Shown: positions 6,105 through 61,506 of the stretch, piece after piece
Layout of the letters: the number at the start of each line of letters is the position of its first letter
Position numbering within the stretch: the stretch's first letter is position 1
Virus record (IMG/VR): IMGVR_UViG_3300020577_007013
Direction: 5' to 3' (one strand)
Length of the DNA: 64,000 bases
Source: a virus
Taxonomy: Duplodnaviria > Caudoviricetes
Translations under genes and position numbers: made by a program
Notes under the pieces: model-generated
Told to the model about the DNA's origin: nothing
The model's input: the letters and a program-made list of their open reading frames with translations, nothing else
Database searches by the model: none

Positions 6105-6445
6105 TAACGAAATCCAGCTTCTTCCCATCTGTTTTTGACTTGTTCTTCAGTCACATTTTTACAATAATTGCTGTATCCTGCAAATGATGATGTCATTGTT
6201 ATAAGATGACCGTTTCCTCGGTCATACTCTTTAGTTATGAGAACTTCATTTCCAGATTCCCTATCACAGAGTTTGACAAATGTCTCATGACCTGCAGGAA
6301 TTCTGATTTCGTATCTATAGTACTGTTTTCTAGGATCAACTTTTCTAGTCTCTTGCTTATTTAGAATTGAATGAAATAGAAGGGCTCCGATAGTGCAGAC
6401 TATAACTAGAGTAATCTTTCCTGAAATTGATAGTAAGTTTCTCAT
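6104..6445 (-). CDS. membrane-anchored or secreted hypothetical protein
   Basis: N-terminal hydrophobic helix, AAGGAG RBS. Confidence 0.65.
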   Translation of the reverse strand: MRNLLSISGKITLVIVCTIGALLFHSILNKQETRKVDPRKQYYRYEIRIPAGHETFVKLCDRESGNEVLITKEYDRGNGHLITMTSSFAGYSNYCKNVTEEQVKNRWEEAGFR

Positions 6446-8280: not shown

Positions 8281-8281
8281 T

Positions 8282-8410
8282 TTATTTCTCCTTGAGTTTC
8301 TCTTCGATTTCTTTTTCAGTAGGTTGATGTTGTGGAAATCTATGACAGTGGTCACAAATTCCAAGAGAGTTTTTCTTGGTCTTTCCACACCATTGACATT
8401 TTTCTTTCAT
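8282..8410 (-). CDS. small Zn-ribbon protein (42 aa)
   Basis: my translation MKEKCQWCGKTKKNSLGICDHCHRFPQ...; fills the gap before ligA. Confidence 0.65.
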   Translation of the reverse strand: MKEKCQWCGKTKKNSLGICDHCHRFPQHQPTEKEIEEKLKEK

Positions 8411-34539: not shown

Positions 34540-34811
34540 TATTCCTCCACTATAGGCTTTTCAGCTTCTTCTAAATCAGGCTCGTCATCTTCAGTGTCTA
34601 CAAATTGACCAATTTCTACCATATCGATCATAAGACAGTAGACAGTTTCACAGCAGTCTAGAAATTGCTCTTCTGAAATGGACTCGAATGGTATTTTTAA
34701 TGTGTTGAGAATTGAAAGAACAGTGGAGATTTCGAGAGGGATTTCTCCCTCTCCTATCTCTTCAGATTCTTTAGGTTCTATGTAACCTTGAAGTATCTCT
34801 TTTGCTGTCAT
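34539..34811 (-). CDS. small acidic protein, paralog of 34291-34539
   Basis: ILNTLKIPFESISEEQFLDCCE. Confidence 0.65.
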   Translation of the reverse strand: MTAKEILQGYIEPKESEEIGEGEIPLEISTVLSILNTLKIPFESISEEQFLDCCETVYCLMIDMVEIGQFVDTEDDEPDLEEAEKPIVEE

Positions 34812-35767
34812 TCTTCCTCTGAAGACTCGATCTCTTGATCTACTTCCGATTCCTCTACTTGAGAAATAGGTTCAGATCCTTGAGCTTCTCTTCGACGTTG
34901 ACGTCCTTCTTCAGAAGCATTAGCCATCTTCTCTATAGAGATCTCTCTATGATATTGAATGACTTTCTGTTTGATTTCTTCACAAAGATCTCGGTTATCC
35001 ATGAGCAGTTGAGAACTTTTATCAAGTCCTTGCCCTAATCTCGTTTCACCGTATGCATACCAGCTTCCTGATTTTTTTACGATTTTGATCTTTTCTGCTT
35101 CTTCAATTATAGATCCTTCTTTGTTAAAGTAACCGTCAAACATGAGATCGAATTCAGCAATCTTAAATGGAGGTGAGACTTTATTTTTTACGAACTTAGC
35201 TCTCACTCTATTACCGATTTGATTATCACCTTTCTTTAGTGACTCAATTTTAGCGACTTCAATTCTTTGTGAAGCAAAGAACTTAAGAGCTTTACCACCA
35301 CTCGTTGTTACTGGAGATCCGTAAGAGTTATGGGAAAGAATTCCGTTTGTAAAAAGATTATGATTGTCTTCGACCTCAAGATCATAGACTTTAATTTTTT
35401 CTTCAGTCTTCTCAATTTGACCTGTCTTCCAATTTCCATTTTCAAATAAATAGAAGTTTCCATTATACTTTGAATATAAGAGACCTACTTCTAGATAAGA
35501 AGAGAACTCTGAAGATTTATCCAATCTGGCAGAAAGTCTATGTTCTTTTGAGACTTCTAATTTTCCATTTACTAAATATTTTTCACTATCAGGCTTCCTC
35601 ATAAGCCTTTTAATTTTCTTGAATTCTTCTTGTTTTGTCGTGTGGTTAAAAGACTTGACTTTGATCTCTTTATCAGAAATGTCTATAGACTCGTTCTCCT
35701 TCAAAGAAGTCTCATCTATTCCTATTTTTGAGAATAGTTCTCCCATTTTTATTTTTTCAGTTACCAT
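34808..35767 (-). CDS. recA: split-intein C fragment (147 aa) fused to RecA C-terminal half
   Basis: SKEH (block B), VYDLEVEDNHNLFTNGILSHN|S (blocks F/G), then SPVTTSGGKALKFFAS, KNKVSPPFK, SGSWY; own RBS AAGGGGA. Confidence 0.93.
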   Translation of the reverse strand: MVTEKIKMGELFSKIGIDETSLKENESIDISDKEIKVKSFNHTTKQEEFKKIKRLMRKPDSEKYLVNGKLEVSKEHRLSARLDKSSEFSSYLEVGLLYSKYNGNFYLFENGNWKTGQIEKTEEKIKVYDLEVEDNHNLFTNGILSHNSYGSPVTTSGGKALKFFASQRIEVAKIESLKKGDNQIGNRVRAKFVKNKVSPPFKIAEFDLMFDGYFNKEGSIIEEAEKIKIVKKSGSWYAYGETRLGQGLDKSSQLLMDNRDLCEEIKQKVIQYHREISIEKMANASEEGRQRRREAQGSEPISQVEESEVDQEIESSEEE

Positions 35768-36695
35768 TTGATTCCCCTTGTATTTTTTCAGATTTTATAA
35801 ATTCGAATAGCTCGTTTTTACATTTTTCGTAATTGTTCATTAAGTCCATTTCCCAAATTATGTAGTATCTGTAATTATTTTCTAATATCCATTGCTTTTT
35901 CCTTATATCATTCACGAGATTTGATTTTTGAAAGTTGTTTAATTCTACAGAAGATGTATAAATTCTAGGATTTGAATGAACATAATCCCCATTAACTTCA
36001 ATGACAGTCTTATCATTAACTAAAAAATCCACACGATAATTTTTACAAAGATACCTTTCTCTTCTAAAATCAACCTTAGCTTCAAGAAGAATGTCGAAGA
36101 CCATTCTCTCTATTCTAGTCATCTTTTTATTAATGGGATTCGGCTCTCCTAAAATTTTTAATTTGTAGTTTTTCCAAAGTTTTTTGAGAACTTTAGAAGA
36201 GATCTCATAAGATATACAAAGCTGATTCCAAGTCATGAGTCTTGTGTCATTAAGAAAATTTTTCCATTTCTCTACACTCCAATTTTTAATTTGACTGGGA
36301 GACTTAGTGGTCGTCTCCTTAAGTCTCTTTTTAAGTTCTTTGTTTTCTCTAAAAAATCCAGTAAGTCTTTTAGAAGAATAAAAAGAGAGTCCTAATTCTT
36401 CCCAGATAATCCATAGTTTATGGGTATGGGGAGTGGAGTTAATGTAGTCTACGAGAATCATTTTGTCTTTTTCTGTTAGCTCTCTTCTTTTTAAAAGTTT
36501 TGTTTTTTTAACTTTAGAGACTCTTTCAGGAGAGTGCTTTACCCCTAAAAGAGAGTCTCTAATTTTCTTTCCAACTTCAGGTCTTTTGGTTCCTAAAATT
36601 CTCCTTCCAGTTAATTGTCCTAAACACTTTCGACTGCATACTTTTTTCTGTCTGACTTTTAAAATTGACTCACAGACTTCACATTTTCTTTCCAC
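35757..36695 (-). mobile_element. free-standing homing endonuclease (Zn finger, NUMOD-like, Vsr/DUF559-type PD-(D/E)xK) inside fractured recA
   Basis: CEVC...CSRKC; TRIER...VDF...IEVNGDYVH...D..K...IWE; GTG 36695 follows an ACTAA motif. Confidence 0.85.
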
Positions 36696-36716
36696 ATAGA
36701 TTAGTTCATTAATCAA

Positions 36717-37406
36717 TTAGAATTGAATTTCGAGTTCAGTATTACTACTGAAACAACCAATATTACTTCTAGTTTGGTTAATGAATACCAACGTTGTGTT
36801 TGTCTTCTGAACTGCTGCTGTAAGCTTTCTAAGAGCTTGACCCATAAGTCTCGCTAAGATCGCCATGTGTGCATCACCCATGTCTCCTTCAGCTTCTGCT
36901 CTAGGTACAAGTGCAGCGACTGAGTCGACTACTACAATGTCTAGACCACCTGATTTTACGAATGCATCAACGATCTCTAATGCTTGTTCAGCACCGTCAG
37001 GTTGACTGACTAAGAGTTCATCGACATTCACTCCTAATTTTCTTGCCCAAACTGGATCTAATGCATGTTCTACGTCGACAAATGCACAAATACCGTCATT
37101 CTTTTGGGCTTGAGCTATAAGATTGAGTACAAGTGATGTTTTTCCACTAGATTCATTCCCATAAATCTCTATGATCCTTCCTCTAGGAAATCCACCTATT
37201 CCAGAAGCTATGTCAAGAGAAAGAATATCAGTTTCTATATGAGGAAAATCGATTCTATTTGAATCCATCCTCATGATAGTTCCTTGTCCGTAAGCTTTTT
37301 CTAAGAGAAGTATTGCCGGATCTAGACTCTTCAACCTCTCTATTTTTGAAAGCCTAGGTATTGATTCTGCAGTCTTAGAGACTACATCATTAAATGTTTC
37401 TGCCAT
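36717..37406 (-). CDS. recA: RecA N-terminal half fused to a 12-aa split-intein N fragment
   Basis: [49 protein letters not shown]|[12 protein letters not shown]. Confidence 0.95.
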
Positions 37407-44953: not shown

Positions 44954-47656
44954 CTATGCTGCATTTGGATATCTTGTCCAAAGTTTTTCATTTCTTAGAT
45001 TGATACGTTCGACCATCTGTTTAAATTCATCAGGATTTTTTTTCCAATATTCATGCTTCTTTCCAAATCCCCAGATCTCACCGTATTTGATCTCAGCTTT
45101 TAACTTGACTTTACTACCTAACCGATTCTCATAATATTTTCTCGACATGCATTCTTTGAGAATTTCTACTACTTCGTCAAGTTCAGGAACGTAAGTCTCG
45201 ACTAGAATTGAGTCATGAACATTAGAAAGAACTCTCGATCTAAAATCTCTCTTTCTAAATTCCTCTCTAATCGAGCACATTGCTAAGAGACATGTTTGAC
45301 CAGAAGATCCTTGAATAGGAGCATTAATGACTCCATTCATCATAGAGTTCATCCGTTTACGTCTGTCTTTATTATTGCCATCTCTACCAATATAAGTCAA
45401 TTCAGGAAATCTTCTTTTCTTTCCTGTAAGAGTCTTGACCCAACCTACTTTTTTAGCTTGAGTCCTAAAGTCATCCATATATTTTTTGAATTCAGGATAC
45501 GTCTCATAGAAGACTTGAAGAAAAAGTTTAGCTGTTTCGATGTCTACACCAAGATTCGACTGTAATCCGAATTCAGTAGATCCATATAGACACGAAAAAA
45601 TAGTTGACTTTCCTTGACCTCGAATCTTTACAAATTCAGGTATCTCATCAATTTTAGCATATTGAAAGATTTCTTCGTATGTGTAAAATTTTCCAGTTTG
45701 TGGATTTATTTTACCTAATGCTTTCATCATCTGAGATGCAAGAAATGAGTGCATGTCCTTACCTAAAAGTAAGTTTTCTTCCAATGGTCCAGTACCACTA
45801 ATTTGAGAAGCTTGTCCTACTTCCATGCCTTCATAGTCAGCTTCTATAAAGACATGATCTTTAATCGGAAGAAATAGTTTACGAAAAGCTTCTTTCTTTG
45901 TAAAATTCTGAAAGTTAACTGAAGATCTCAGACCACCTCTAGAAGCCATCCTTCCAGTGTCTGTACCTCCTAAGTCAAATCCACCATGAAGTCGATTATC
46001 ATAGACAGAAGCTAAGAATCCGTCTTGTTCTTCTATTGGAACATCTATTAAGTCTTCATCTATTTCGAATAAAACTTTTTGCTTAAATTCCTCTTTAATG
46101 GTCTTATTTTTCTCTGCTTCAGCATCTCTAATTTGTGAGAGTTCTTTTTGTATATGATAGTAATGAGAGATCTTTTTAGCTAATGGAAATCCTTTCTCAG
46201 CATACATATCCATGATGTCTCTACCGAGTTGAAGATCTCCAGTTTTCGTTCTTAATTCATTTCCTTCTTCATCTTTAAGAACTTTGAAACCAGGAACTTT
46301 CTCTAAGACTTTCGTAAGTTCTTTCTTACTATTGAGATTAAAAGATCTTCCAGCAAGCTTATAGATTTCGTCTTCAATTTCTCTGGCTTCTTTTTTCATT
46401 GAGTCAGCATATTCATTAAGATAGACACGATCCAACTGAATTCCAGTATATTCGACCTCAATGATCATGTCAGTTGCCTTCATCATGACATTATAGAAAT
46501 TGTTTCTCACGTCTTCGTCTTCTTCTAAGAGTCGTTTTTCAAAATATTTCTTAAGAATATAGGTAATTATCGCATCTGTACAAGCGTATTCTAAAAGAAT
46601 GTTAATCGGTACTTTTGTAAAATTTTTCCTGACTTCCTCATCATTTAGAGATTTCTTCAACTTCGTCTCATAACCACCATACTTTGTGAAAATCCAAGTG
46701 TTCGGTTTTAGACCTTTTGGTTTATTCTCATTGAGAATGTAGGAAGCATACATTGTGTCAAAATCATTTCTAGCATTATGTATACCATTAGCTTTCAAGA
46801 ATTTTACGTCGAATTGTCCATTCTGAAAAATGAAACAAATTCTTTTTAATGCGAAAAGCTGAATGAGAAGATCTTTATCGATGTCTTTGAAAAAAGCAAA
46901 ATGTCCGTCAGTCTCATTAAATGCAAATTGTATACTGTATAATTCATCTCTATAGTAATCTAATCCCGAAGTCTCGATATCGACAGATAAGTCTATGATT
47001 GATTCATCTGCTATGATTTTTCTAATGAACTCATTGGGATCTTCTAATTTAATATAATTGAGTTTCGGAATTCTTGCTTTCGGTTGAATTGCTAATTCAC
47101 ATGCTAGTTGAATTTGTTTTTTTGTATGATCAAATTCAAATACGTCCAATATAGCGTTATTGCTATTCCATGTAAATAAAGCAGGGAGTGGAACCACGTT
47201 ACATTTGAACTCAGGAGAATAAAGATATTTCTCATCCTTATGAAGAGAAAAGAAATGATCAGGCTTGAGATCTTTCATTTCAGTAATTGTATAAAGAGAA
47301 CGTCCAGTAGTCACAATTACTTTCGGATTGTATTCGAGAATTCTTTTCTTAATGTTTGCTGCTTTACAAGTAGAATAAGTATTTACTGTATCTCCTGAAC
47401 TAAATCCTTTCGGAGTACAACCGAGACCAGGAATTATTGCATACTTGAATTTGTCTTTTAGTGTATGTCTGACAAGAGAAGCAAAATTTTTATTTAGATT
47501 GTCTCTTTCTTTGAATTCTAGAAGAAAAAGAATATCGACTTCTCCGGTCTTCTCACCATCAAATGTCTGATTGTAAGTATACTCGAATATTGCTTCCTTA
47601 TTCGCTGCACAATGACAGTTCGCTACAAATTGTCTTTTGAAAAAATCTTGTTTCAT
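44954..47656 (-). CDS. polA: family A DNA polymerase with N-terminal UDG-fold domain and 3'-5' exonuclease
   Basis: YNPKVIVTTG (UDG-like), VDIETSGLD, QNGQFD, DTM, TGRMAS, EADY, INAPIQGS, VHDS. Confidence 0.93.
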   Translation of the reverse strand: MKQDFFKRQFVANCHCAANKEAIFEYTYNQTFDGEKTGEVDILFLLEFKERDNLNKNFASLVRHTLKDKFKYAIIPGLGCTPKGFSSGDTVNTYSTCKAANIKKRILEYNPKVIVTTGRSLYTITEMKDLKPDHFFSLHKDEKYLYSPEFKCNVVPLPALFTWNSNNAILDVFEFDHTKKQIQLACELAIQPKARIPKLNYIKLEDPNEFIRKIIADESIIDLSVDIETSGLDYYRDELYSIQFAFNETDGHFAFFKDIDKDLLIQLFALKRICFIFQNGQFDVKFLKANGIHNARNDFDTMYASYILNENKPKGLKPNTWIFTKYGGYETKLKKSLNDEEVRKNFTKVPINILLEYACTDAIITYILKKYFEKRLLEEDEDVRNNFYNVMMKATDMIIEVEYTGIQLDRVYLNEYADSMKKEAREIEDEIYKLAGRSFNLNSKKELTKVLEKVPGFKVLKDEEGNELRTKTGDLQLGRDIMDMYAEKGFPLAKKISHYYHIQKELSQIRDAEAEKNKTIKEEFKQKVLFEIDEDLIDVPIEEQDGFLASVYDNRLHGGFDLGGTDTGRMASRGGLRSSVNFQNFTKKEAFRKLFLPIKDHVFIEADYEGMEVGQASQISGTGPLEENLLLGKDMHSFLASQMMKALGKINPQTGKFYTYEEIFQYAKIDEIPEFVKIRGQGKSTIFSCLYGSTEFGLQSNLGVDIETAKLFLQVFYETYPEFKKYMDDFRTQAKKVGWVKTLTGKKRRFPELTYIGRDGNNKDRRKRMNSMMNGVINAPIQGSSGQTCLLAMCSIREEFRKRDFRSRVLSNVHDSILVETYVPELDEVVEILKECMSRKYYENRLGSKVKLKAEIKYGEIWGFGKKHEYWKKNPDEFKQMVERINLRNEKLWTRYPNAA

Positions 47657-48966
47657 TAATAGAGCTTCACTTGAGTACAGTTAAGTTTTTGACCGAAATC
47701 ATTTAACTCGAAGAATAATTGATCTTCGTTCACCCAATTAGCTATATTATAGTTTTCTTTATTTATGAAAATAATTGTGTTTGCTTTCTTAACTGAGCTT
47801 TCTAAGTCTTCTACTAAAATGTCTTTGATCTGTCCTAATTGAGGAATCAAAGTCTTTGAGTTCGTTCCGTCTTTTAGAGATTCAGTAACATTGAAGTCAT
47901 GAACCATGACATTAAAAGTCTTCTCCTCTTTTAAGAGTTTATTGACAAGAGTCACATTAGGACTCATCCTCACATCATCCGTTCCTTCTTTAAAGGAGAG
48001 TCCCAAAACAAGAACAGTATGCTTTGTAATATTGCTTAGAAGTCTATGGGTGAGAAGCAATTGCCTAAAGACTGATTCAATTTTCTCTTCATTACTTTGT
48101 TCGATTCTGCTGAATAAATTATGCTTACTAGAATGTAAAGCTGATAGAGCACGTAAATCCTTCGGAAGACATGATCCACCGTATGCAAAACCAGGACTCA
48201 AATACTTGGAAGATATATTGAGCTGAGTATCTCGTTTAAAAAGTTCCATTACTGAGTCGGAGTCTATTTTATTTTCTCTACAAATCTGTGAGACTTCATT
48301 TGCAAACACAATTTTAAGAGCATGCCAAGAATTATTTACCATTTTGATAATCTCAGCTTCTTCAGCTTTACAGAATTTGACTTCTGATTTTGTCTTGTAA
48401 ATATCTCTGCATATTGACTCCACAAATTCATTTTCCTCTCTGAGCCCAAATAATGTGAAAGGAGGATTCATGAAGTCTTGAATAGCTTTTCCTTCTCTAA
48501 GAAACTCAGGATTCATGACGACATCGAAGTCTTTACTGATCTTCTTTCCAGAAGAGTTCTCTAGAATAGAAGCCACATTTCTAAGAGCTCCTGGCATTAC
48601 AGTACTACGAATTGCTATGAGATGAAACGTAGTCTTTTCTGACAAGACCTTTCCAATATTGTCTGCTACTTTATAGATTGCTGTAAGATCAAGTTCTCCG
48701 TTGAATTTATTTGGAGTTCCTATGCAAATAAGTGAAAGATCGGTATTGAGAATTGCATCCTTGACTGAATTTGTTGCTTTTATAAATTGCTTATTGACTC
48801 TAAATAAGTCGTCTAGACCATTTTCTTTGATAGTCGGCTTTCCATTGTTAATGAGATCTATTTTCGACTCATCTATGTCTACACCTAGGACATCATGTCC
48901 CATATCAGAAAGACATCCTATATTAACACATCCGACATATCCTAAACCGAATACTGAGATTTTCAT
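47656..48966 (-). CDS. NDP-sugar 6-dehydrogenase, closest in pattern to GDP-mannose 6-dehydrogenase (AlgD)
   Basis: ISVFGLGYVG, ICIGTP, RSTVMPG, NPEFLREG, NSWHALKIVFANE, KLN-like QLNIS..YLSPGFAYGGSCLPKD, GLSFKEGTDDVR. Confidence 0.9.
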   Translation of the reverse strand: MKISVFGLGYVGCVNIGCLSDMGHDVLGVDIDESKIDLINNGKPTIKENGLDDLFRVNKQFIKATNSVKDAILNTDLSLICIGTPNKFNGELDLTAIYKVADNIGKVLSEKTTFHLIAIRSTVMPGALRNVASILENSSGKKISKDFDVVMNPEFLREGKAIQDFMNPPFTLFGLREENEFVESICRDIYKTKSEVKFCKAEEAEIIKMVNNSWHALKIVFANEVSQICRENKIDSDSVMELFKRDTQLNISSKYLSPGFAYGGSCLPKDLRALSALHSSKHNLFSRIEQSNEEKIESVFRQLLLTHRLLSNITKHTVLVLGLSFKEGTDDVRMSPNVTLVNKLLKEEKTFNVMVHDFNVTESLKDGTNSKTLIPQLGQIKDILVEDLESSVKKANTIIFINKENYNIANWVNEDQLFFELNDFGQKLNCTQVKLY

Positions 48967-49505
48967 TATTTTACCTCTATATGTTCCACTGAGATTCCGT
49001 TTGATTTCATTAATTCAAGACCTTGAGTCTCTCTATCATAAACTTCAGAGTAGACCACTCTCTTGATTCCTGATATAATAATCACTTTTGAACAAGCTAG
49101 ACAACTCGATAATGTAATGTAAAGAGTTGAGTCCTTTAATTGTTCTCTATCAGCAAATAAGATCGCATTCTGTTCTGCATGAAGTTCATTCAAACTAGAG
49201 AAATGTCCATGAGCATCATAGAACTCTTGAGTTCCTTTCCATTTCTTGTAAGCAAGCTCTATATCAAAATGCTCTTCTGTAGGGTATCTAAATAAAGGGT
49301 TTGTCCCGTCTCTCCATACAGACTCTGAGAATACATTCTTGAAATGATCGCAACAATGAAGACTCTTACTAGAAGATCCGTTCCATCCCGTTGATATAAT
49401 CCTTTTATTTTTCGTAATTACTGCTCCGACATTCACTCTCGCACACGTAGAGTTCTCTGCTACAATTTTAGCAATCTTTAGAAACCTTAGATCTTTCTCA
49501 ATCAT
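48966..49505 (-). CDS. dCMP deaminase
   Basis: STCARVNVGAVI, STGWNG, HAEQNAI, SCLAC. Confidence 0.93.
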   Translation of the reverse strand: MIEKDLRFLKIAKIVAENSTCARVNVGAVITKNKRIISTGWNGSSSKSLHCCDHFKNVFSESVWRDGTNPLFRYPTEEHFDIELAYKKWKGTQEFYDAHGHFSSLNELHAEQNAILFADREQLKDSTLYITLSSCLACSKVIIISGIKRVVYSEVYDRETQGLELMKSNGISVEHIEVK

Positions 49506-50199
49506 TCTTTTTCTCTACAAATGAGTCTAGGATTTTGAAGTGTCTTTCATAAATGTGCATGCTAGAAGTATAGAAAAACAGTGACCCGACTTCGAGTTTC
49601 AAATCTTCTGCAAGCTTCCTAAGTAAATAGCCGAACCAATAGATATCGTACGAAAAACCAAAAATAAGATCGGTACTTCTCATAAAAACTCTTGAATTAA
49701 GTTTTCCTTCTTTAACTCTGAATGTCTGATTCAATGTACAAACAAAGTCTTTGTTTCCGTCATATTTATGTTTAGGCTGATTGTAGTTAATGACGGCTTG
49801 TCGAGATTCTATATCATCTCTAAAACATTTTAAACACCAATCGTATTGGCTCATTCCATTAAGAGTCTCTTTGAATACTATGAATCCGTAATTTGAGTTA
49901 AGCTTTCCGAAAGGACTTTCGATTTTACCCCAAAATGATGAATGTTTTTTGATTCCTTCAGAATCCAATGTTCCGTTCAAGTACCATTCCATTTCTCCTT
50001 TAAGATAATCCATTGAAAGGTCTCGTTCAGGGAGAGTTATTGTGCAATTTGTCTCAGTAGGATCTGTAATCTCTATGAAAACGTCCTCTAACTCGATAGT
50101 CTTAAGACCTCTAGGAGAAGAGTTCAGACCATTGTAATTTAGCTCGCAACAGACTTGACTAAAGATTCCGTTAGCGTCTTTGTCTCTAAGTTCAGTCAT
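49498..50199 (-). CDS. thymidylate-synthase-fold enzyme, T4 gp42-like dCMP hydroxymethylase
   Basis: EMEWY, NSNYG, QYD, SRQA, DFVCT, MRSTDLIFGFSYD (Asp at specificity site), HIYERHF. Confidence 0.85.
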   Translation of the reverse strand: MTELRDKDANGIFSQVCCELNYNGLNSSPRGLKTIELEDVFIEITDPTETNCTITLPERDLSMDYLKGEMEWYLNGTLDSEGIKKHSSFWGKIESPFGKLNSNYGFIVFKETLNGMSQYDWCLKCFRDDIESRQAVINYNQPKHKYDGNKDFVCTLNQTFRVKEGKLNSRVFMRSTDLIFGFSYDIYWFGYLLRKLAEDLKLEVGSLFFYTSSMHIYERHFKILDSFVEKKND

Positions 50200-51268
50200 T
50201 TTCTTTTAATCCCCAAATTATTGACTCAAATTTATCTACATGATCTCTGAGTTCATAGTGTTGAATTTTTTCAGCAAAATTATAATAAAGTTTGTGTAGA
50301 TCTAAGTTATTTAGCTTCCAAAGAAGTTCATCACCATCTTTAATAATCTGGTCTTCTACAACGTATTCCTCTATGTGATCTATTTTATCATAGACGAATA
50401 CAGGAATTCTCGCCATTCTAGCTTCGAATAAACGAATTGAGATCAATCCGATCTCTTGTTGTCTTTTATTTGAACAATGAACAGTAGCTTTTGACATCGC
50501 CAACAATGGCAAGGTAGTCCAGTGTTCTGTTGATCCAAACCAAATATTGTTAGGAAAATTGTCAAGTGAAAAATCCCGATCATCGTATTTCTTTCTTAGC
50601 CAATTTCCAGCGACTGCAATGGATTTTCCAGCATCATGAGTAGGTTTGAGAAGTCTACAGAAGTCATCCCTTCTTTCATACACATTTCCACAATATGAAA
50701 GATCAAACTTCTTAGAAGGAAGACTCCACTCATCAAAGATATCACACCAAGTCCACATAAAGAAGTGTTCTGAGTTAAACGTCCTAGGATCGATCTTATT
50801 ATGATAAGCTCTTAGAAGATTAATGTGGCTACAATACTTATCTGGAATCTGTATACACCATCCTTCTCTGTCCTGGACAAAGACCTTCCTACCTTTACTT
50901 ATGAAATAATCTATTAAAGTGACTTGAGTCTCGCATTCCTTTTCAAAATTGTATCCCTCTTTCGAGATAAAAGGTCTGAGCTCTATATAAAGAATACCAT
51001 CTTCTTTCAAATCATCATCTGTAAATGTAGGTCCAATATCTTGGACTCTATGTCTGACTGACAATCTATAATTGTCTTCTGTAAGATTAAAAGCTTTGAC
51101 TAAATTGTTCTCAGTTCGATTTTTATATTCATACCCAAGCCACTTGACATTGCAACGTCTATTGACGAGTTCGTTAAGGAATGGAATACGACTGTAAGAT
51201 CCACCATCGACTCCTGAGTATAAGTTATCAAGGTGTCCTGCACCGAAATAATAGATTGTTTTTTTCAT
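50192..51268 (-). CDS. GT-B glycosyltransferase (T4 beta-glucosyltransferase/CgeB-like)
   Basis: FDLSYCGNVYERR, AVAGNW, ISIRLFEA; 358 aa. Confidence 0.7.
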   Translation of the reverse strand: MKKTIYYFGAGHLDNLYSGVDGGSYSRIPFLNELVNRRCNVKWLGYEYKNRTENNLVKAFNLTEDNYRLSVRHRVQDIGPTFTDDDLKEDGILYIELRPFISKEGYNFEKECETQVTLIDYFISKGRKVFVQDREGWCIQIPDKYCSHINLLRAYHNKIDPRTFNSEHFFMWTWCDIFDEWSLPSKKFDLSYCGNVYERRDDFCRLLKPTHDAGKSIAVAGNWLRKKYDDRDFSLDNFPNNIWFGSTEHWTTLPLLAMSKATVHCSNKRQQEIGLISIRLFEARMARIPVFVYDKIDHIEEYVVEDQIIKDGDELLWKLNNLDLHKLYYNFAEKIQHYELRDHVDKFESIIWGLKEND

Positions 51269-52245
51269 TAATTGTATCCTTTATGAGTCTTTTCGAATAG
51301 ATAACACATCATAGATCCATTATCTTCTAAAAGAAGACTTGTCATATATTGAGCCAATGGAACTGGGAGAAATTTGGAGAGTCTTTTATACTCTTTTGTC
51401 TCCCCTAATTTAGCATGATTTACAATTTTCTTTGTCCACCAAGGAAAAGACTCAAGTTTATTAAAAATAAACCTATAATCATAATGTTCAGAAAAATACA
51501 TGTCAATTTCTTTCTCAGTATACTCAACTTTATGGTCATCTGGCCACACTAAGAATTCCCCTATCTCCTTTCTAGGATTAGGAGTGGTCATAAATAGTTC
51601 CCCTTTAAAATAGAGCAGATCCCAAAGATTCTGAATAAAATCCAATAAAGTAGTGTCTATGTGTTCAAAGACCTCAGCTAAGACAATAATATCGTAAAAC
51701 TCTATGACAGAATATCTCCAAGGTTCTACTGTCTTAGGTCTAACTGAATTAGGAAGAGCATTATAGTTCGGACCCAAAGTTCTACTAAAACTGAATAGAT
51801 CAGACTTAAGTACATTTCTCCCTTTTGACTGAGCTTCATCGACATAAGTTTGATTTCCATCAATTCCGATATAATTGACATTTATTGAATTCTCTTTTCC
51901 GAAAAATTTAAAGTTATGAATAAAATCTGATAAGAGTCCTAAACTACAACCAACATCTAGAAGCCTGATATGAGACTTTTTTGTTTTAAGACTATAGTTC
52001 TCTATCATTCTGCACACATTTAAGTGTCTCATTAAGAGTCCTATTGACCATGTAGAGTTCCAATCAAAATTGTCAATATTTTTTTGGAGATATTTAAAAG
52101 AGTTATCTTGAAGAAGATCAATTTCTTTTTTCTGTTCTGTGACAATTGCCTGATCTTCAGTTAAGGTTTTTTCCGAGACTCTCGACACGAACTGTTCAAA
52201 AGTCTTGTCCTCAAATTGAGGTTCTTTGTCTAGTAGTACAGCCAT
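51268..52245 (-). CDS. class I SAM-dependent methyltransferase
   Basis: RLLDVGCSLG, YIGID, DIIVLAEVFEHI, LFMTTPN. Confidence 0.9.
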   Translation of the reverse strand: MAVLLDKEPQFEDKTFEQFVSRVSEKTLTEDQAIVTEQKKEIDLLQDNSFKYLQKNIDNFDWNSTWSIGLLMRHLNVCRMIENYSLKTKKSHIRLLDVGCSLGLLSDFIHNFKFFGKENSINVNYIGIDGNQTYVDEAQSKGRNVLKSDLFSFSRTLGPNYNALPNSVRPKTVEPWRYSVIEFYDIIVLAEVFEHIDTTLLDFIQNLWDLLYFKGELFMTTPNPRKEIGEFLVWPDDHKVEYTEKEIDMYFSEHYDYRFIFNKLESFPWWTKKIVNHAKLGETKEYKRLSKFLPVPLAQYMTSLLLEDNGSMMCYLFEKTHKGYN

Positions 52246-52246
52246 T

Positions 52247-53287
52247 TTATGCTTCCTTTATTAACTCAGTCTTGTGATATCGAAAATATGAAGGATGATA
52301 ATAAGCTGTGTGTTCGACTCCATTCTTTGATAATAATTCATGTGAAGGCTTTCCGAATGAGACAATTCGCTTAGGTTTGAGTACATTTATTTGAGCTGTC
52401 AAAAGTCTTTCACAATATTGTATTTCATCACTCGTTGGTGGCCTGTCTTTCTCTGTACTAAACTTAACTATGTTCGTGAATGAGAACTGTTTATTGTTCA
52501 AACCGAATTCAGACTGTGCGAATTTAGAAAGAAACTTGTAGAAAGTAGATTTGAAATAACTTTTATGATGCTCGAACTCGAAGTCCTTGTACTTCTGAAA
52601 AACTTTTGTGTGAACTGGAATGTCCTCCACCTGGTTTTCAGTTGGTCTTCCTGGATTTTGTCCTACAAATAAGATTTCGTCTCCGTAAAAAAGACCCGGA
52701 AAAAAGATTCTTCCTTCAGTAGATTTATCTCGATAAATGTTTGTGTTCAGAACTTCAAGAACCTTGTGCCTATCAATGAAAGACATTATCATCTCAAGTT
52801 GAGCTTCAAGATCTTGAGAATCTGTATTAAGCATAAGTACCTTATTGTAGGATCGATTGATGATCTCAAGATACCTCTCTTCAGCTTGTTTCTTCAAATC
52901 GATGGGAGTCTCTTCGTCCTTATAATCTTTGATTTCTGTCTTATAGCAATAGACTATGACAGTATCTCTCTTGAAGTATTCTAGATCAAATTGAAGACAA
53001 GTACTGAGAATGGATTTGGAAAGAAAATCCTCTTGTCTTTTCAGATAGCCATATACAAATTCACTCATATAGTCACGATCAAAAATAATGTCCTTAATGA
53101 ATCGTTGATCATAGTATTGAAAAAATTTCGGTATACAATATCTGAAAGAGTCTTCGAAGTTGAAATTTTTGATCAATGAAAGATTCGATTTGTCATTTGT
53201 CATGAGAGGCATGAACATTTTTTTAGACAAAGCTTTAGCGATAGTTGATTTACCGCAGTTGTCGAATCCTTCAAAGATAATGATCAC
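52247..53287 (-). CDS. dNMP (thymidylate-type) kinase fused to a uracil-DNA-glycosylase-superfamily domain
   Basis: IIFEGFDNCGKST, FDRDYMSEFVYG; then ILFVGQNPG, FTNIVK, QINVLKPKRIVSFG, YHPSY. Confidence 0.85.
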   Translation of the reverse strand: MIIIFEGFDNCGKSTIAKALSKKMFMPLMTNDKSNLSLIKNFNFEDSFRYCIPKFFQYYDQRFIKDIIFDRDYMSEFVYGYLKRQEDFLSKSILSTCLQFDLEYFKRDTVIVYCYKTEIKDYKDEETPIDLKKQAEERYLEIINRSYNKVLMLNTDSQDLEAQLEMIMSFIDRHKVLEVLNTNIYRDKSTEGRIFFPGLFYGDEILFVGQNPGRPTENQVEDIPVHTKVFQKYKDFEFEHHKSYFKSTFYKFLSKFAQSEFGLNNKQFSFTNIVKFSTEKDRPPTSDEIQYCERLLTAQINVLKPKRIVSFGKPSHELLSKNGVEHTAYYHPSYFRYHKTELIKEA

Positions 53288-53290
53288 TTC

Positions 53291-53449
53291 TTAATGCACC
53301 AAGCTTTTGAGTTTTTCTTCACCATATTTGAATGCTTGAGTAGCCATTATGAGTCTCATTCCTTCTTCACACTTTTCTCTAGAAGAGAACTCTTGAGAAC
53401 GTGAATCAAAGCCATGTGTACCTGCAAGTATCCAAAATAAGATCCACAT
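53291..53449 (-). CDS. small hypothetical protein (52 aa)
   Basis: my translation MWILFWILAGTHGFDSRSQEFSSREKCEEG...; fills gap. Confidence 0.65.
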   Translation of the reverse strand: MWILFWILAGTHGFDSRSQEFSSREKCEEGMRLIMATQAFKYGEEKLKSLVH

Positions 53450-53452
53450 AAA

Positions 53453-53899
53453 TTATGATCCTGTACTTCCGAAGCCACCGGTAGATCTTTCAGTATTAAT
53501 TGAGATATTTTCTACCATTTTCGGTGTGCCATCCCAAATCGGTACAACAATACCTTGACAAACTTTTTCTCCACTATGAAAGAAGGCCGTTTCAGTCTTC
53601 GACGTATTGTGTAGATGAGCGTGCACAATTCCTCTATAGTCAGCGTCAATTACACAAGCAAGTATTTCAAGCTTCTTTTTGGTTGCTAATCCACTTTTTT
53701 CTTTCATAATAAGAGCATACCCTTTAGGAAATTCAGTCTTAATTCCTAAAGGTATCAATGCGTCTTCTCCTGGATTAATGTGAAAATCTGTAGGCGTATA
53801 GAAATCGAGTCCAGCAGAATCTCCTGTTCCTCTAGTCGGCATTTTCGCATACTTGTCTACAAGTTCGATATTCAGATAAAAATCTTCAAACATTGTCAT
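53453..53899 (-). CDS. dut: trimeric dUTPase
   Basis: SAGLDF, KSGLA, VIDADYRG, CQGI, RSTGGFGSTG. Confidence 0.95.
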   Translation of the reverse strand: MTMFEDFYLNIELVDKYAKMPTRGTGDSAGLDFYTPTDFHINPGEDALIPLGIKTEFPKGYALIMKEKSGLATKKKLEILACVIDADYRGIVHAHLHNTSKTETAFFHSGEKVCQGIVVPIWDGTPKMVENISINTERSTGGFGSTGS

Positions 53900-59304: not shown

Positions 59305-59865
59305 ATGGAAACATTCTCTTCACTTTTAAAGTTTGCGTCAGATAAACCATTCGCTTTCAGCTCGATTCTTCTCATAATTTTGGGATTCATTTTTCTCTTC
59401 TTGAAGACTTTTAGAGTCTCCTTTAAAAAAGGACCTATACCGAATATCGAGTCGAGATCTAGTCTTGAGTCCAATAAACAACTTGTAGAAGCTCATTCAA
59501 AAATAAAAGAACTTGAGGATAAACTCTTACATTCACATGTTCCAGATTTTATTAAAAAGACCGATAACGGTGAGTACATCGGTTTCATGATTGCTCCTAA
59601 ACCATATATTACAGTATGGGTCGACGGAAACTGGAGTAGTGAAGAACATTTTCAAATCTTTGATCGCTTCGAAAGATTATGGGATGATGAACAAGACATT
59701 TATCTTGTAGGAAAAAGTCCAAATCTCCCATCTGATCTTTATCATATTATTGAGAAAAAAGCTAAGTCACTCCCTAAACTTTCTATTCATTGCTCTCACC
59801 AATTAGGAGAATTTTTTACTAGATATTTCTCCGATTTCAAAAATGTCGAAGTCCTCATGAGGTAA
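59305..59865 (+). CDS. membrane-anchored protein with putative STAS (anti-sigma-antagonist-like) domain
   Basis: TM helix aa 17-33, short coiled coil, then ITVWVDGNW-helix-DIYL...LPS-helix pattern; context next to kinase and PP2C. Confidence 0.45.
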   Translation: METFSSLLKFASDKPFAFSSILLIILGFIFLFLKTFRVSFKKGPIPNIESRSSLESNKQLVEAHSKIKELEDKLLHSHVPDFIKKTDNGEYIGFMIAPKPYITVWVDGNWSSEEHFQIFDRFERLWDDEQDIYLVGKSPNLPSDLYHIIEKKAKSLPKLSIHCSHQLGEFFTRYFSDFKNVEVLMR

Positions 59866-59866
59866 A

Positions 59867-60262
59867 ATGTATCACGTCTCACTCAACGATGTCACAGCAA
59901 TTAAAAAAATCCAAGAACATTACAAAAATAATTTTGACATAAAGAACATAGCTCAAGAGATACTTCAAAATTCTTTAAATGAAAATCAGAAAGGGGAGAT
60001 GTTCATAAGTGATAAACTCATTCTCTTCCGTGTGTATCTAGGAACTCAGGAATTGGTCGATCTCACGGAGACTAAGATCAATCAAGGAATAGAGTTCGCA
60101 AAACTATGTCAACAAAACAAAAAAGCCAGATTAGATTCATTAGAAAAAATTCGACCATCGAAAAAACATGGAAGAGGATTTCTCAGTATACTATATCATG
60201 GTTGGGACTTGGTTACCTTACCAAATCACACGGAAGTATTGATAGCGGCGATAAAAGCTTAA
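59867..60262 (+). CDS. RsbW/SpoIIAB-like GHKL kinase (anti-sigma-type), compact
   Basis: N-box IAQEILQNSL and G2-box HGRGFLSI in 131 aa. Confidence 0.6.
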   Translation: MYHVSLNDVTAIKKIQEHYKNNFDIKNIAQEILQNSLNENQKGEMFISDKLILFRVYLGTQELVDLTETKINQGIEFAKLCQQNKKARLDSLEKIRPSKKHGRGFLSILYHGWDLVTLPNHTEVLIAAIKA

Positions 60263-61506
60263 AAGAACAACTCTACGACATAAGTTTTGATACCTCGAAG
60301 AGAATAAAACTCTTTTCTCTTCTAATCAGACTCTTCATTTCTATCTTACTTCTCATAATCTTAGCCATCGACGTTCATATAGGACTCTATCCTATTGAGA
60401 GCTCAGTCTCCCCTCTCTCAATTCTTTTTATTTACACACTTCTAGTGATCTATATGCTTAATTTGTGTAAAAAATCAGAAAGTTTCAAGTCTCTCAATGG
60501 AGTAATGGACATTGTCTATGTGACATGTGAAATTCTCGCTGTATACTTTGCTATTCTAACATTTCCGACTCATCCAGCAAATATGTATTCTAATTCACTT
60601 AAAGGATTCTGGTCGGTCCTTATTGTTCTCTCAGTCTTCACAGGAAAATGGTATTATGGATTTTATTCAGGAGGATTGGTCGCCGTTCTCAATGCTTCCA
60701 CTGCTTACTTCTACTCAAAGATTAAAAGAGATTTTGAAATTGTAGGAATTGACTTTCAGAAAGTTGATCCTCTCTTTCAAATTTTCGTTTGGTCTCTATA
60801 TTATTTTTTACAAGGAGCTCTTATCTCTTTTCCATTTTATCTTTTTAGGAAACAACAGTCTATGGCTCTGAATGCAAAAACAGAGAATATTGTAGCAAGA
60901 CCCTATTATGACTTATGTTTGGAAGACGGTCAACATTTAGTCGGAGATTATCTCATCAATAAGGTCTCTTCATCTAATGACGTAATCGGTGCTGATTTTA
61001 CTTCTATGAAGCCTACAATTGCAGACCATTGTTATGGTGCCTTAATTATAGGAGATGTGATAGGACACGGTCTCAATAGAAGTCCAGGTGCAATTATTGC
61101 TATGGCAGCTTTTAAGTCTTGTTACACTACTGATCCGGTTTACGTTCAAGAAACGATAAATAGAGTTCTTGTTGATGTCGATAAGTCTAGTGGTGGGAAG
61201 GCAATCTGCCTTTCTATTAGGCTCATGGAAAATGGAATTATAGAATACTCTGGAAAAATTGATAGTTTTACTTTAGTGGAAAAAGAGAATGTTAGGTCAA
61301 TTTCACTTTCTTCAAAAGGAGAGATTCTAGGAATTCAGCCTCTTCTATTGGTTACTGAAAAAAGTGTAATCTCTATGAATGTAGGAGACTCACTTTATCT
61401 CAAGACTGACGGGATTCATGATCTTCAAGATGACAAGACCGTTGTAATTATCACTAGATTGTCAGACGAAGAGAGACTCGCTATTTCTGAGAGTTCGAAA
61501 GACTAG
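60106..61506 (+). CDS. multi-TM SpoIIE/RsbU-type PP2C phosphatase
   Basis: about 6-7 TM helices, then IGADF, IIGDVIGHG, LKTDGI, QDDKTVV (all metal-binding Asp motifs). Confidence 0.88.
   Translation: MSTKQKSQIRFIRKNSTIEKTWKRISQYTISWLGLGYLTKSHGSIDSGDKSLKEQLYDISFDTSKRIKLFSLLIRLFISILLLIILAIDVHIGLYPIESSVSPLSILFIYTLLVIYMLNLCKKSESFKSLNGVMDIVYVTCEILAVYFAILTFPTHPANMYSNSLKGFWSVLIVLSVFTGKWYYGFYSGGLVAVLNASTAYFYSKIKRDFEIVGIDFQKVDPLFQIFVWSLYYFLQGALISFPFYLFRKQQSMALNAKTENIVARPYYDLCLEDGQHLVGDYLINKVSSSNDVIGADFTSMKPTIADHCYGALIIGDVIGHGLNRSPGAIIAMAAFKSCYTTDPVYVQETINRVLVDVDKSSGGKAICLSIRLMENGIIEYSGKIDSFTLVEKENVRSISLSSKGEILGIQPLLLVTEKSVISMNVGDSLYLKTDGIHDLQDDKTVVIITRLSDEERLAISESSKD

What the first reader, a model, noticed from the sequence alone, without database searches (positions are those of the whole stretch)
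44954..53899. Candidate new DNA hypermodification pathway: methylated uronic-acid glycoside of hydroxymethylcytosine
Seen: a translationally coupled run (shared or overlapping start/stop at 51268, 50192-99, 49498-505, 48966, 47656). Order is dUTPase, small ORF, dNMP kinase-UDG, SAM methyltransferase, GT-B glycosyltransferase, TS-fold enzyme, dCMP deaminase, NDP-sugar dehydrogenase, PolA. Established: the TS-fold enzyme carries T4 gp42 motifs, including Asp (FGFSYD) where dUMP-using enzymes have Asn, which points to dCMP. AlgD-type dehydrogenases convert GDP-mannose to GDP-mannuronate. Inference: the phage makes hm-dC (or hydroxy-dC), attaches a uronic acid that it synthesises itself, and methylates the sugar (ester or O-methyl). 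I know of no described phage base carrying a methylated mannuronate. It would give a charged or charge-masked shield against restriction and CRISPR nucleases.
Basis: partly seen in the sequence, partly recalled or inferred. Interest (0 to 1): 0.92.

Follow-up and report, generated by a model that had tools for sequence, protein, structure and literature searches.

The report
Phage sugar-acid modification pathway for hydroxymethylcytosine DNA
A large uncultured phage carries a T4-style gene set for making hydroxymethylcytosine DNA and glycosylating it, plus its own GDP-mannose dehydrogenase and an O-methyltransferase, so its DNA probably carries a sugar acid, possibly methylated, of a kind not yet described in detail.

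Summary
Nine tightly packed minus-strand genes (53899-44954) have the stated order and overlaps.

- **TS-fold enzyme:** its best solved relative is T4 gp42. It has the 5hm-dCMP-synthase signature (L143D, D169 kept, N177D) and lacks the D169N mark of 5-hydroxy-dCMP synthases.
- **Glycosyltransferase:** it belongs to a small, metagenome-only family. An expanded profile links it to T4 DNA beta-glucosyltransferase (hhalign 97.6%; the only significant PDB hit, E 1e-14).
- **Synteny:** in phages with PolA, PolB or DnaE replicases this GT sits beside a TMP-kinase-like kinase (often fused to a UDG domain). In most of them it also sits beside a gp42-type TS homolog and changing sugar-nucleotide enzymes.
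- **Dehydrogenase:** it is AlgD-like (GDP-mannose 6-dehydrogenase).
- **Methyltransferase:** it is a UbiG/Hen1-like O-methyltransferase, found only in this phage clade and always together with the dehydrogenase where the contig reaches that far.

Glycosylated 5hmC is therefore well supported. Mannuronate as the sugar is a reasonable inference, and its methylation is weaker.

Hexuronic-acid-5hmC from metavirome clusters (Pyle et al. 2023 preprint) and glucuronate in SP-15 DNA are precedents. This is a new variant of a known kind, not a new kind. This scan also noted the same stretch in an overlapping window (e1-5759330).

The parts
53453..53899 (-). dUTPase (148 aa), first gene after a ~420-nt intergenic region
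   Evidence: PF00692 E 4e-21, phrog_135 E 4e-45. The upstream gap was read. Whether it also hydrolyses dCTP is unknown.
53291..53449 (-). 52-aa ORF of unknown function
   Evidence: Weak phrog_5579 hit (E 8e-4). A 49-aa ORF sits at the same place in L004 with only 40% identity. Coding status is uncertain.
52247..53287 (-). Fusion of a TMP-kinase-like P-loop NMP kinase (about residues 1-175) and a family-4-like UDG-fold domain (about 195-346; motifs GQNPG, FSFTNIVKFS, YYHPSY). The kinase is the predicted hm-dCMP kinase. The role of the UDG domain is open.
   Evidence: PF03167 53.5 bits, weak Thymidylate_kin, phrog_761. The kinase part resembles RB69 gp45 (E 1e-4). The same fusion lies directly upstream of GT homologs in L006 and L018, and a free UDG lies after the GT in L001. 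The UDG part resembles the N-terminal domain of SPO1-type DNA polymerases.
51268..52245 (-). Class I SAM-dependent O-methyltransferase (325 aa), UbiG/Hen1-like. Predicted to O-methylate the DNA-linked or nucleotide-linked sugar.
   Evidence: Methyltransf_23 E 6e-8, UbiG TIGR01983 E 5e-9. No DNA-methyltransferase family among the reported hits. Motif-level match to Hen1/HENMT1 (E-x-x-E-H, TTPN, DHK-x-EYT), E 0.008-0.03. Only 4 homologs in 5.8 billion proteins, all in this phage clade between kinase-UDG and GT. The AF2 model is poor (pLDDT 50).
50192..51268 (-). GT-B glycosyltransferase (358 aa), remote homolog of T4 DNA beta-glucosyltransferase. Predicted to glycosylate 5hmC in DNA.
   Evidence: AF2 pLDDT 92. 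T4 BGT is tied for top structural match: Z 23.4, rmsd 3.6, 306 aligned. Expanded profile A5 vs T4 BGT: hhalign 97.6%, E 4e-12, 300 columns. T4 BGT is the only significant PDB hit, E 1.2e-14. T4 D100/R102/R269/E272 align with E96/R98/R279/E282, which are invariant in the 24-sequence alignment A1.
49498..50199 (-). Thymidylate-synthase-fold enzyme (233 aa), predicted dCMP hydroxymethylase (5hm-dCMP synthase)
   Evidence: Best PDB hit is T4 gp42 at E 1.8e-28, against 2e-15 for MilA and about 1e-9 for ThyA. Signature: Cys in KDFVCT, Asp at L143, Asp at D169, Asp at N177. The criteria come from PMC13326640.
48966..49505 (-). dCMP deaminase (179 aa, with an insertion)
   Evidence: PF00383 E 1e-21, phrog_174 E 2e-51. 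A dCMP deaminase accompanies the GT in most related loci.
47656..48966 (-). NDP-sugar 6-dehydrogenase (436 aa), AlgD-like; predicted GDP-mannose to GDP-mannuronate
   Evidence: Three UDPG_MGDP_dh domains. P. aeruginosa AlgD (1mfz) scores 302 bits, E 5e-89, full length with GGSCLPKD conserved; the best UDP-glucose dehydrogenase-type hit scores 185 bits. Among the top 120 homologs, every substrate-specific name is 'GDP-mannose 6-dehydrogenase'.
44954..47656 (-). Family A DNA polymerase with 3'-5' exonuclease (900 aa), last gene of the reported run
   Evidence: PF00476 E 7e-60, PF01612 E 6e-20. It must accept hm-dCTP if the pathway works as proposed (inference).

Best explanation
The operon encodes a T4-like, two-stage cytosine hypermodification. 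Before replication, the TS-fold enzyme converts dCMP to 5-hydroxymethyl-dCMP. The TMP-kinase-like domain of the kinase-UDG fusion phosphorylates it, host enzymes complete hm-dCTP, and PolA incorporates it. dUTPase and dCMP deaminase balance the pyrimidine pool. After replication, a glycosyltransferase related to T4 beta-glucosyltransferase attaches a sugar to the hydroxymethyl group in DNA. In this phage clade the donor is probably GDP-mannuronic acid, made from host GDP-mannose by the phage's AlgD-like dehydrogenase. A UbiG/Hen1-like metal-dependent O-methyltransferase then probably methylates a sugar hydroxyl. Shown here: the family assignments, the signatures and the synteny. Inferred: donor identity, methylation target, and action on DNA. 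My estimates for the steps: 5hmC about 0.8; GT acting on 5hmC-DNA about 0.75; uronic-acid donor about 0.5; methylation of that sugar about 0.35.
For: The gp42-type signature (L143D, D169, N177D) and the best PDB hit T4 gp42 support 5hm-dCMP synthesis (criteria). The GT is homologous to T4 DNA beta-GT by profile, by transitive BLAST and by fold, and the BGT catalytic and UDP-binding positions align with invariant residues. The GT family is small (250 representatives among 1.84 billion) and every context examined looks like phage DNA. In PolA, PolB and DnaE backbones it lies next to a TMPK-like kinase or kinase-UDG, and in most next to a TS homolog; all four extra-clade TS homologs whose sequence could be read (L001, L006, L011, plus the clade itself) have the D/D/D signature. 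Variable sugar-nucleotide genes also accompany it. T4 itself has gene 42 next to beta-gt. Relatives carry GDP-mannose-pathway enzymes around the GT: Fcl-like and Gmd-like in L002, a PMI-type cupin in L001. This fits a GDP-sugar donor and the AlgD-like dehydrogenase here. The methyltransferase and dehydrogenase are present together in the window, L004/L005 and L008/L009, and both are absent from all other GT contexts. All nine genes are intact at 53-97% identity in relatives.
Against: There is no chemical data; the phage is known only from metagenomes. The co-occurrence of methyltransferase and dehydrogenase comes from one phage clade, so it counts as a single evolutionary event. The GT proteins are acidic (pI about 5-7.7, against 9.05 for T4 BGT), which is unexpected for a DNA-binding enzyme. 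No GDP-mannose synthesis gene, dCTPase or further GT turned up among the ORFs scanned in the 64-kb window, and the rest of the roughly 254-kb genome could not be read. The methyltransferase match to Hen1/UbiG is weak statistically (E 0.008-0.03), and a Hen1-like enzyme could act on RNA instead. Fold comparison cannot separate BGT from GT4 enzymes (Z values tied). L002/L003 show no TS homolog within 10 kb of the GT.
Confidence: 0.55

Rival explanations
1. The phage makes glycosylated 5hmC, but the GT uses an ordinary host donor (UDP-glucose, GDP-mannose). The dehydrogenase and methyltransferase serve something else, such as draining or rerouting host GDP-mannose, or remodelling an envelope polysaccharide during infection.
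For: GT homologs in L006 and L018 work without an adjacent dehydrogenase or methyltransferase. The tight gene packing spans the whole replication module, so adjacency is weak evidence. Bacterial homologs of the dehydrogenase sit in polysaccharide loci (L019).
Against: Relatives place other sugar-nucleotide enzymes directly around the GT. That pattern is best read as donor tailoring. The dehydrogenase and methyltransferase are conserved inside the nucleotide/replication operon in three sampled lineages. No flippase, polymerase or membrane GT was found among the window ORFs scanned.
Confidence: 0.2
2. The methyltransferase is a Hen1-like RNA 3'-terminal 2'-O-methyltransferase, or another small-molecule O-methyltransferase, unrelated to the DNA sugar. 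The final base is then an unmethylated hexuronyl-5hmC.
For: Its only solved-structure similarities are to Hen1/HENMT1 RNA 2'-O-methyltransferases and UbiG. Many phages encode generic Methyltransf_11/23 enzymes.
Against: It lacks the other Hen1 domains, and no Pnkp-type partner was seen among the window ORFs scanned. It is found only in this clade, always wedged between kinase-UDG and GT, and with the dehydrogenase wherever the contig extends that far.
Confidence: 0.15
3. The TS-fold enzyme makes a different base (5-hydroxy-dCMP as in RB69/DLP3, or 5-methyl-dCMP), and the GT acts on that, or not on DNA at all.
For: The kinase-GT-TS arrangement mirrors the RB69 gp45-46:47-48 and DLP3 gp78-80 clusters for 5-hydroxycytosine. 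The kinase domain weakly resembles RB69 gp45.
Against: D169 is retained, whereas all tested 5hodCMP synthases have D169N. Asp at the L143 position argues against a methyl product. T4 gp42 scores far better than RB69 gp48. The GT profile does not match RB69 gp46/47.
Confidence: 0.07
4. The GT, dehydrogenase and methyltransferase glycosylate a non-DNA target (a virion protein, LPS or a small molecule).
For: The GT family is acidic. By fold alone, GT4 enzymes acting on lipids and small molecules score the same as BGT.
Against: T4 DNA beta-GT is the only significant sequence-profile hit in the PDB. The GT is linked to gp42-type TS homologs and nucleotide kinases in unrelated phage backbones.
Confidence: 0.05

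Closest known systems
T-even phage 5hmC pathway: T4 gp42 dCMP hydroxymethylase, gp1 dNMP kinase, beta-glucosyltransferase (GT63), cd dCMP deaminase
   Same: Pre-replicative 5hm-dCMP synthesis by a TS homolog with the same active-site signature. A GT-B glycosyltransferase homologous to beta-GT. The TS-homolog gene lies next to the GT gene, as gene 42 lies next to beta-gt in T4. A dCMP deaminase is present.
   Different: PolA jumbo-phage backbone, not Straboviridae. The kinase is TMPK-like and fused to a UDG domain, not gp1-like. The GT is only about 13% identical to BGT and acidic. The phage encodes its own sugar-nucleotide dehydrogenase and an O-methyltransferase. The donor is probably a GDP-sugar acid rather than UDP-glucose.
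Glycosylated 5-hydroxycytosine clusters of RB69, DLP3 and RL38J1 (Lee et al., NAR 2026, PMC13326640)
   Same: A three-gene core of TMPK-like nucleotide kinase, first GT and TS homolog, with phage-encoded synthesis of an unusual NDP-sugar next to it.
   Different: Those TS homologs carry D169N and make 5-hydroxy-dCMP with a flavin; this one keeps D169. Their first GT is not detectably similar in sequence to this GT. Their sugars are arabinose or galactose/glucose.
Metavirome 5hmC glycosylation clusters (Pyle et al., bioRxiv 10.1101/2023.12.21.572611)
   Same: Phage GTs place diverse glycans on 5hmC, including a hexuronic acid (433 amu nucleoside) and Kdo. GT-B enzymes are often linked to thymidylate-synthase homologs and dCMP deaminase.
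   Different: The reconstituted HexA pathways were of the MT/5mYOX (post-replicative) type and used E. coli donors, in one case with an epimerase. No dedicated NDP-sugar dehydrogenase or sugar O-methyltransferase is reported in the sections I read.
Bacillus phage SP-15 (phosphoglucuronolactone and glucose on 5-dihydroxypentyluracil)
   Same: A uronic acid in phage DNA, and a phage-encoded NDP-sugar 6-dehydrogenase (gene 146; 31.6% identical to the window protein).
   Different: The modified base is a uracil derivative. The uronate is attached through a phosphodiester. The dehydrogenase is of the UDP-glucose type. The phage lineage is different.

Membership tests
T4 gp42-type dCMP hydroxymethylase (thymidylate synthase superfamily) | Catalytic cysteine at the E. 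coli ThyA C146 position | tested here: met
   KDFVCT aligns with T4 SDFMCT.
T4 gp42-type dCMP hydroxymethylase (thymidylate synthase superfamily) | Asp in place of ThyA N177 (dCMP rather than dUMP) | tested here: met
   FGFSYD aligns with T4 FGFRND. The criterion is quoted.
T4 gp42-type dCMP hydroxymethylase (thymidylate synthase superfamily) | Acidic residue in place of ThyA L143 (water access, hydroxymethyl rather than methyl product) | tested here: met
   Asp three residues before the Cys, as in T4 (criterion).
T4 gp42-type dCMP hydroxymethylase (thymidylate synthase superfamily) | Enzymatic formation of 5hm-dCMP from dCMP and methylene-THF | not testable with these tools
   Needs an expression assay.
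5-hydroxy-dCMP synthase (RB69 gp48 / DLP3 gp80 type) | Asn in place of ThyA D169 (D169N diagnostic residue) | tested here: not met
   The window has RSTD and RB69 gp48 has RSQN (criterion).
T4 DNA beta-glucosyltransferase family (CAZy GT63-like) | GT-B two-Rossmann fold | tested here: met
   AF2 pLDDT 92. T4 BGT Z 23.4, rmsd 3.6, 306 aligned, tied with GT4 enzymes.
T4 DNA beta-glucosyltransferase family (CAZy GT63-like) | Sequence-profile homology to T4 BGT | tested here: met
   Profile A5: hhalign 97.6%, E 4e-12; hmmsearch of the PDB E 1.2e-14 with the next hit at 0.006. The narrow profile A1 alone was not significant (5.7%), so the link depends on intermediate sequences.
T4 DNA beta-glucosyltransferase family (CAZy GT63-like) | Catalytic base (T4 Asp100) and UDP-binding Arg/Glu (R191, R195, R269, E272; residue roles recalled from the BGT literature, D100A mutant entry 1nzd) | tested here: inconclusive
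   D100 aligns with E96, R102 with R98, R195 with R200 (next to invariant R199), R269 with R279, and E272 with E282; R191 aligns with Y197. The pattern is compatible but not identical.
T4 DNA beta-glucosyltransferase family (CAZy GT63-like) | Transfers sugar to 5hmC in duplex DNA | not testable with these tools
   Supported only by synteny with gp42-type TS homologs.
GDP-mannose 6-dehydrogenase (AlgD type) | Three-domain UDPG_MGDP_dh architecture with the catalytic Cys in GGSCLPKD | tested here: met
GDP-mannose 6-dehydrogenase (AlgD type) | Closer to characterised GDP-mannose than to UDP-sugar dehydrogenases | tested here: met
   AlgD scores 302 bits against 185 or fewer for UDP-glucose-type enzymes. 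All substrate-specific names among the top homologs are GDP-mannose 6-dehydrogenase. NCBIfam gives only the generic subfamily.
GDP-mannose 6-dehydrogenase (AlgD type) | Substrate specificity for GDP-mannose | not testable with these tools
   Needs an enzyme assay.
Hen1/UbiG-like metal-dependent O-methyltransferases | SAM motif I plus E-x-x-E-H, (S/T)TPN and DH(K/R)xE(W/Y)T motifs | tested here: inconclusive
   The motifs align with Anabaena Hen1 and human HENMT1, but whole-sequence E-values are only 0.008-0.03. UbiG TIGR01983 scores E 5e-9, below its cut-off.
UDG superfamily (family-4-like) | Pfam UDG above threshold, with motif A and motif B (HPS) | tested here: met
   PF03167 scores 53.5 bits against a cut-off of 24.3. 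GQNPG replaces GE(A/G)PG. HPS is conserved in the fused forms. Glycosylase activity was not tested.

The most novel reading that the evidence does not exclude
This jumbo-phage clade replaces cytosine with 5-(O-methyl-mannuronosyl-oxymethyl)cytosine. The donor comes from a phage AlgD-type dehydrogenase and the sugar is finished by a Hen1/UbiG-like O-methyltransferase that recognises its cis-diol. That would be the first methylated sugar acid on DNA. Separately, the kinase-UDG fusion is a previously unrecognised partner of BGT-like DNA glycosyltransferases, for example a glycosylase that polices deaminated or unmodified bases in hmC genomes.
Probability: 0.25. Interest if true: 0.75.

Novelty: new variant of a known kind. 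Interest (0 to 1): 0.6.

Why it matters
Phage DNA hypermodifications decide whether restriction enzymes, CRISPR nucleases and type IV systems can act on a phage. They also supply enzymes for DNA labelling and epigenetic sequencing. If the prediction holds, the known 5hmC sugars would gain an acidic, methyl-capped sugar made with a phage-encoded donor pathway. The work also defines a small family of beta-GT-like DNA glycosyltransferases that moves between unrelated phage backbones as a kinase-GT (usually also TS-homolog) module, with the sugar-nucleotide genes swapped from phage to phage. That module is a practical handle for mining new DNA glycans.

Tried and rejected
- **GenBank phages:** megablast of the region and tblastn of the GT found no match.
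- **IMG/VR:** a scan with the single GT found nothing. A scan with the alignment gave one locus, L011.
- **Narrow GT profile:** A1 against the PDB, against RB69 gp46/gp47 and against T4 BGT was not significant. Only the expanded profile A5 linked to BGT.
- **Methyltransferase structure:** the AF2 model was too poor (pLDDT 50) for a fold search. The Atlas search gave only generic class I methyltransferases.
- **Bacterial link for the methyltransferase:** the Methyltransf_23 gene near a bacterial homolog of the dehydrogenase (L019) is unrelated to the phage enzyme.
- **Whole genome:** A genome-wide search for dCTPase, ThyA/ThyX, ManB/ManC or a gp1-like kinase was therefore impossible.
- **Promoters and terminators:** the scan gave no more promoter-like sites than shuffled sequence.
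- **PolA N-terminus:** BLASTP of the UDG domain against it was not significant.
- **Other look-ups:** P0051 was not on record. The two closest phage-database hits of the dehydrogenase are unannotated 'UNVERIFIED' records and were not pursued.

Full report
**Observation.** The minus strand between 53899 and 44954 carries nine ORFs. Pfam and PHROGs confirm the order:
- dUTPase
- a 52-aa ORF
- a P-loop kinase fused to a UDG-superfamily domain
- a class I SAM methyltransferase
- a weak Glyco_trans_1_2 protein
- a Thymidylat_synt protein
- dCMP deaminase
- a three-domain UDP-glucose/GDP-mannose dehydrogenase
- PolA

The run starts after a roughly 420-nt intergenic region. The same tight packing continues downstream through an SNF2-type helicase, a DnaC-like loader and a ribonucleotide reductase to 39462. 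The coupling therefore marks one replication and nucleotide-metabolism transcription unit. It is not, by itself, evidence for one pathway.

No GenBank phage is close. The identical dehydrogenase lies on a public contig of 253,865 bp, so this is a jumbo phage known only from metagenomes.

**The TS-fold enzyme.** Its best solved relative is T4 gp42 dCMP hydroxymethylase (E 1.8e-28). CMP hydroxymethylase MilA follows at 2e-15 and true thymidylate synthases at about 1e-9. Lee et al. (NAR 2026, PMC13326640) give residue criteria:
- N177D selects dCMP.
- An acidic residue at L143 goes with a hydroxymethyl rather than a methyl product.
- D169N marks the flavin-dependent 5-hydroxy-dCMP synthases of RB69, DLP3 and RL38J1.

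The window protein has Asp at all three positions (KDFVCT, RSTD, FGFSYD), like T4 gp42. RB69 gp48 has RSQN. It is therefore predicted to be a 5hm-dCMP synthase. It is not an ordinary TS, a dCMP methylase or a 5hodCMP synthase.

**The glycosyltransferase.** Forty-two homologs exist among 5.8 billion proteins, all from metagenomes. A profile search of 1.84 billion representatives finds only 250 at E<=1e-3, so the family is small. The AlphaFold model is confident (pLDDT 92) and has a GT-B fold. T4 beta-glucosyltransferase is tied for the top structural match (Z 23.4, rmsd 3.6, 306 residues). GT4 enzymes such as BshA and PimA score the same, so fold alone does not decide.

Sequence does decide.
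- The narrow profile gave only a hint.
- After distant members were added, the 61-sequence profile matches T4 BGT over 300 columns (hhalign 97.6%, E 4e-12).
- T4 BGT is the only significant hit in the whole PDB (E 1.2e-14; next hit 0.006).
- Several distant members hit T4 BGT directly by BLASTP.

In these alignments T4 D100, R102, R269 and E272 fall on E96, R98, R279 and E282, which are invariant in the 24-sequence alignment A1. D100 is the residue mutated in PDB entry 1nzd. The functional roles of these T4 residues are recalled from the BGT literature, not tested here. The GT does not resemble the RB69 first arabinosyltransferase gp46/47 in sequence.

**Synteny.** The full nine-gene order recurs in relatives. 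In L004/L005 the GT is 87-88% identical, and in L008/L009 it is 79% identical. All genes are intact at 53-97% identity. More distant GT homologs sit in phage contigs with quite different replicases:

| Locus | Replicase | Genes around the GT |
|---|---|---|
| L006 | PolB | kinase-UDG, GT, TS homolog, dCMP deaminase |
| L001 | PolB | GT, free UDG, a NodC-like GT2, TS homolog, a PMI-type cupin |
| L011 | DnaE | TS homolog, TMPK-like kinase, GT, GalE-like epimerase, cupin, dCMP deaminase |
| P0020 contig | DnaE | kinase, GT, TS homolog, flanked by two epimerase/dehydratase genes |
| L002/L003 | DnaE | TMPK-like kinase, Fcl-like reductase, GT, Gmd-like GDP-mannose 4,6-dehydratase |
| L018 | not seen | kinase-UDG, GT, a nearby SIS-domain protein |

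Every GT-linked TS homolog whose sequence I could read has the D/D/D signature. The P0020 contig gave no DNA, and L002/L003 and L018 show no TS homolog within the flanks fetched.

T4 itself has gene 42 adjacent to beta-gt. RB69, DLP3 and RL38J1 have the kinase, first-GT and TS-homolog trio for 5-hydroxycytosine, and the window kinase domain weakly resembles RB69 gp45.

The simplest reading is a mobile core module: the TS homolog makes the modified dNMP, the kinase phosphorylates it, and the GT decorates it in DNA. Interchangeable sugar-nucleotide genes then set the donor.

**The donor.** The dehydrogenase aligns full length with P. aeruginosa AlgD (302 bits, E 5e-89, GGSCLPKD conserved). The best UDP-glucose-type enzyme scores 185 bits. 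Among its top 120 homologs, every substrate-specific name is GDP-mannose 6-dehydrogenase. NCBIfam assigns only the generic subfamily.

GDP-mannose-pathway enzymes (Gmd-like, Fcl-like, PMI-type cupin) surround the GT in other phages. This independently suggests that the GT family takes GDP-sugars. GDP-mannuronate is thus a reasonable donor here, but it remains an inference. No GDP-mannose synthesis gene turned up among the window ORFs I scanned, so the host, or the unread part of the genome, must supply GDP-mannose.

**The methyltransferase.** It has only four homologs. All belong to this phage clade and all sit between the kinase-UDG and the GT. Wherever the contig is long enough, the dehydrogenase is present too. 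Both genes are missing from all other GT contexts. That is suggestive, but it amounts to one evolutionary event.

It is a class I SAM enzyme with no DNA-methyltransferase family among its reported hits. Its E-x-x-E-H, TTPN and DHK-x-EYT motifs align with Hen1/HENMT1 RNA 2'-O-methyltransferases and resemble UbiG. The E-values are only 0.008-0.03. Those enzymes methylate a hydroxyl that sits next to a second oxygen and is held by a metal. From this I infer O-methylation of a sugar cis-diol rather than formation of a methyl ester. Its structure could not be modelled well.

**Points against.**
- The GT family is acidic (pI 5-7.7, against 9.05 for T4 BGT).
- There is no chemical evidence.
- The whole genome could not be searched for a dCTPase or a true thymidylate synthase.

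**Comparison with what is known.** Glycosylated 5hmC is the T-even paradigm. Pyle et al. (bioRxiv 10.1101/2023.12.21.572611) reconstituted metavirome clusters that put hexose, HexNAc, heptose, Kdo and a hexuronic acid (433 amu) on 5hmC. They also catalogued about 25,000 GT-containing contigs, in which GT-B enzymes are often linked to thymidylate-synthase homologs and dCMP deaminase. SP-15 DNA carries phosphoglucuronolactone, and that phage encodes a UDP-glucose dehydrogenase.

A uronic acid on phage DNA is therefore not new in principle. I found no report of the following:
- a phage-encoded GDP-mannose dehydrogenase inside a pre-replicative 5hmC pathway
- a dedicated sugar O-methyltransferase in such a pathway
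- the kinase-UDG fusion as a recurrent partner of BGT-like enzymes

**Verdict.** It is a new variant of a known kind.

Noticed in passing
window 34808-37406 (-): A RecA/UvsX-like recombinase is split. An N-terminal piece (36717-37406) and a C-terminal piece (34808-35767) both hit phrog_97, and a 319-aa ORF lies between them (35757-36716). This fits an intein or homing-endonuclease insertion, as earlier notes e1-5759331 and e1-5759325 suggest.
   Followed up: no
L004 13610-17728: In the close relative (GT 87-88% identical) the PolA gene is interrupted by a 325-aa ORF with a faint Tn7 TnsA-like endonuclease hit, giving 801-aa and 249-aa PolA pieces. The window's PolA is intact (900 aa).
   Followed up: no
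window 52247-52850 (-), UDG domain: The UDG-fold domain of the kinase fusion is most similar, among GenBank phages, to the N-terminal domain of SPO1-type DNA polymerases of 5hmU phages (about 30% identity, E 3e-4). BLASTP against this phage's own PolA N-terminus was not significant.
   Followed up: partly
L001 12271-13413: A PolB phage with the same GT family encodes a NodC-like processive GT2 (chitooligosaccharide-synthase-like, E 1e-52) between the UDG and the gp42-type TS homolog. It might extend a sugar chain on DNA.
   Followed up: no
L002 7242-8516 and 12235-12940: The DnaE-type phage carrying Fcl-like, GT and Gmd-like genes also encodes a full isocitrate lyase (E 1e-187) and release-factor-1-like fragments next to the modification genes.
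   Followed up: no
window 59305-61506 (+) and L004/L008 equivalents: A SpoIIE/PP2C-type phosphatase with two small upstream genes lies just beyond the tail-fibre-like genes and is conserved in the relatives. Earlier notes e1-5759323 and e1-5759336 describe it.
   Followed up: no
window 6442-8388 (-): An NAD-dependent DNA ligase with a BRCT domain is encoded by the phage (PF01653, PF03120, PF00533).
   Followed up: no
L008 8802-9997: In the 246-kb relative the kinase-UDG gene is called without its P-loop N-terminus (316 aa, starting at MRNDKSNL), and 245 nt are left uncalled upstream. This could be a start-site or frameshift problem, or real loss of the P-loop.
   Followed up: no
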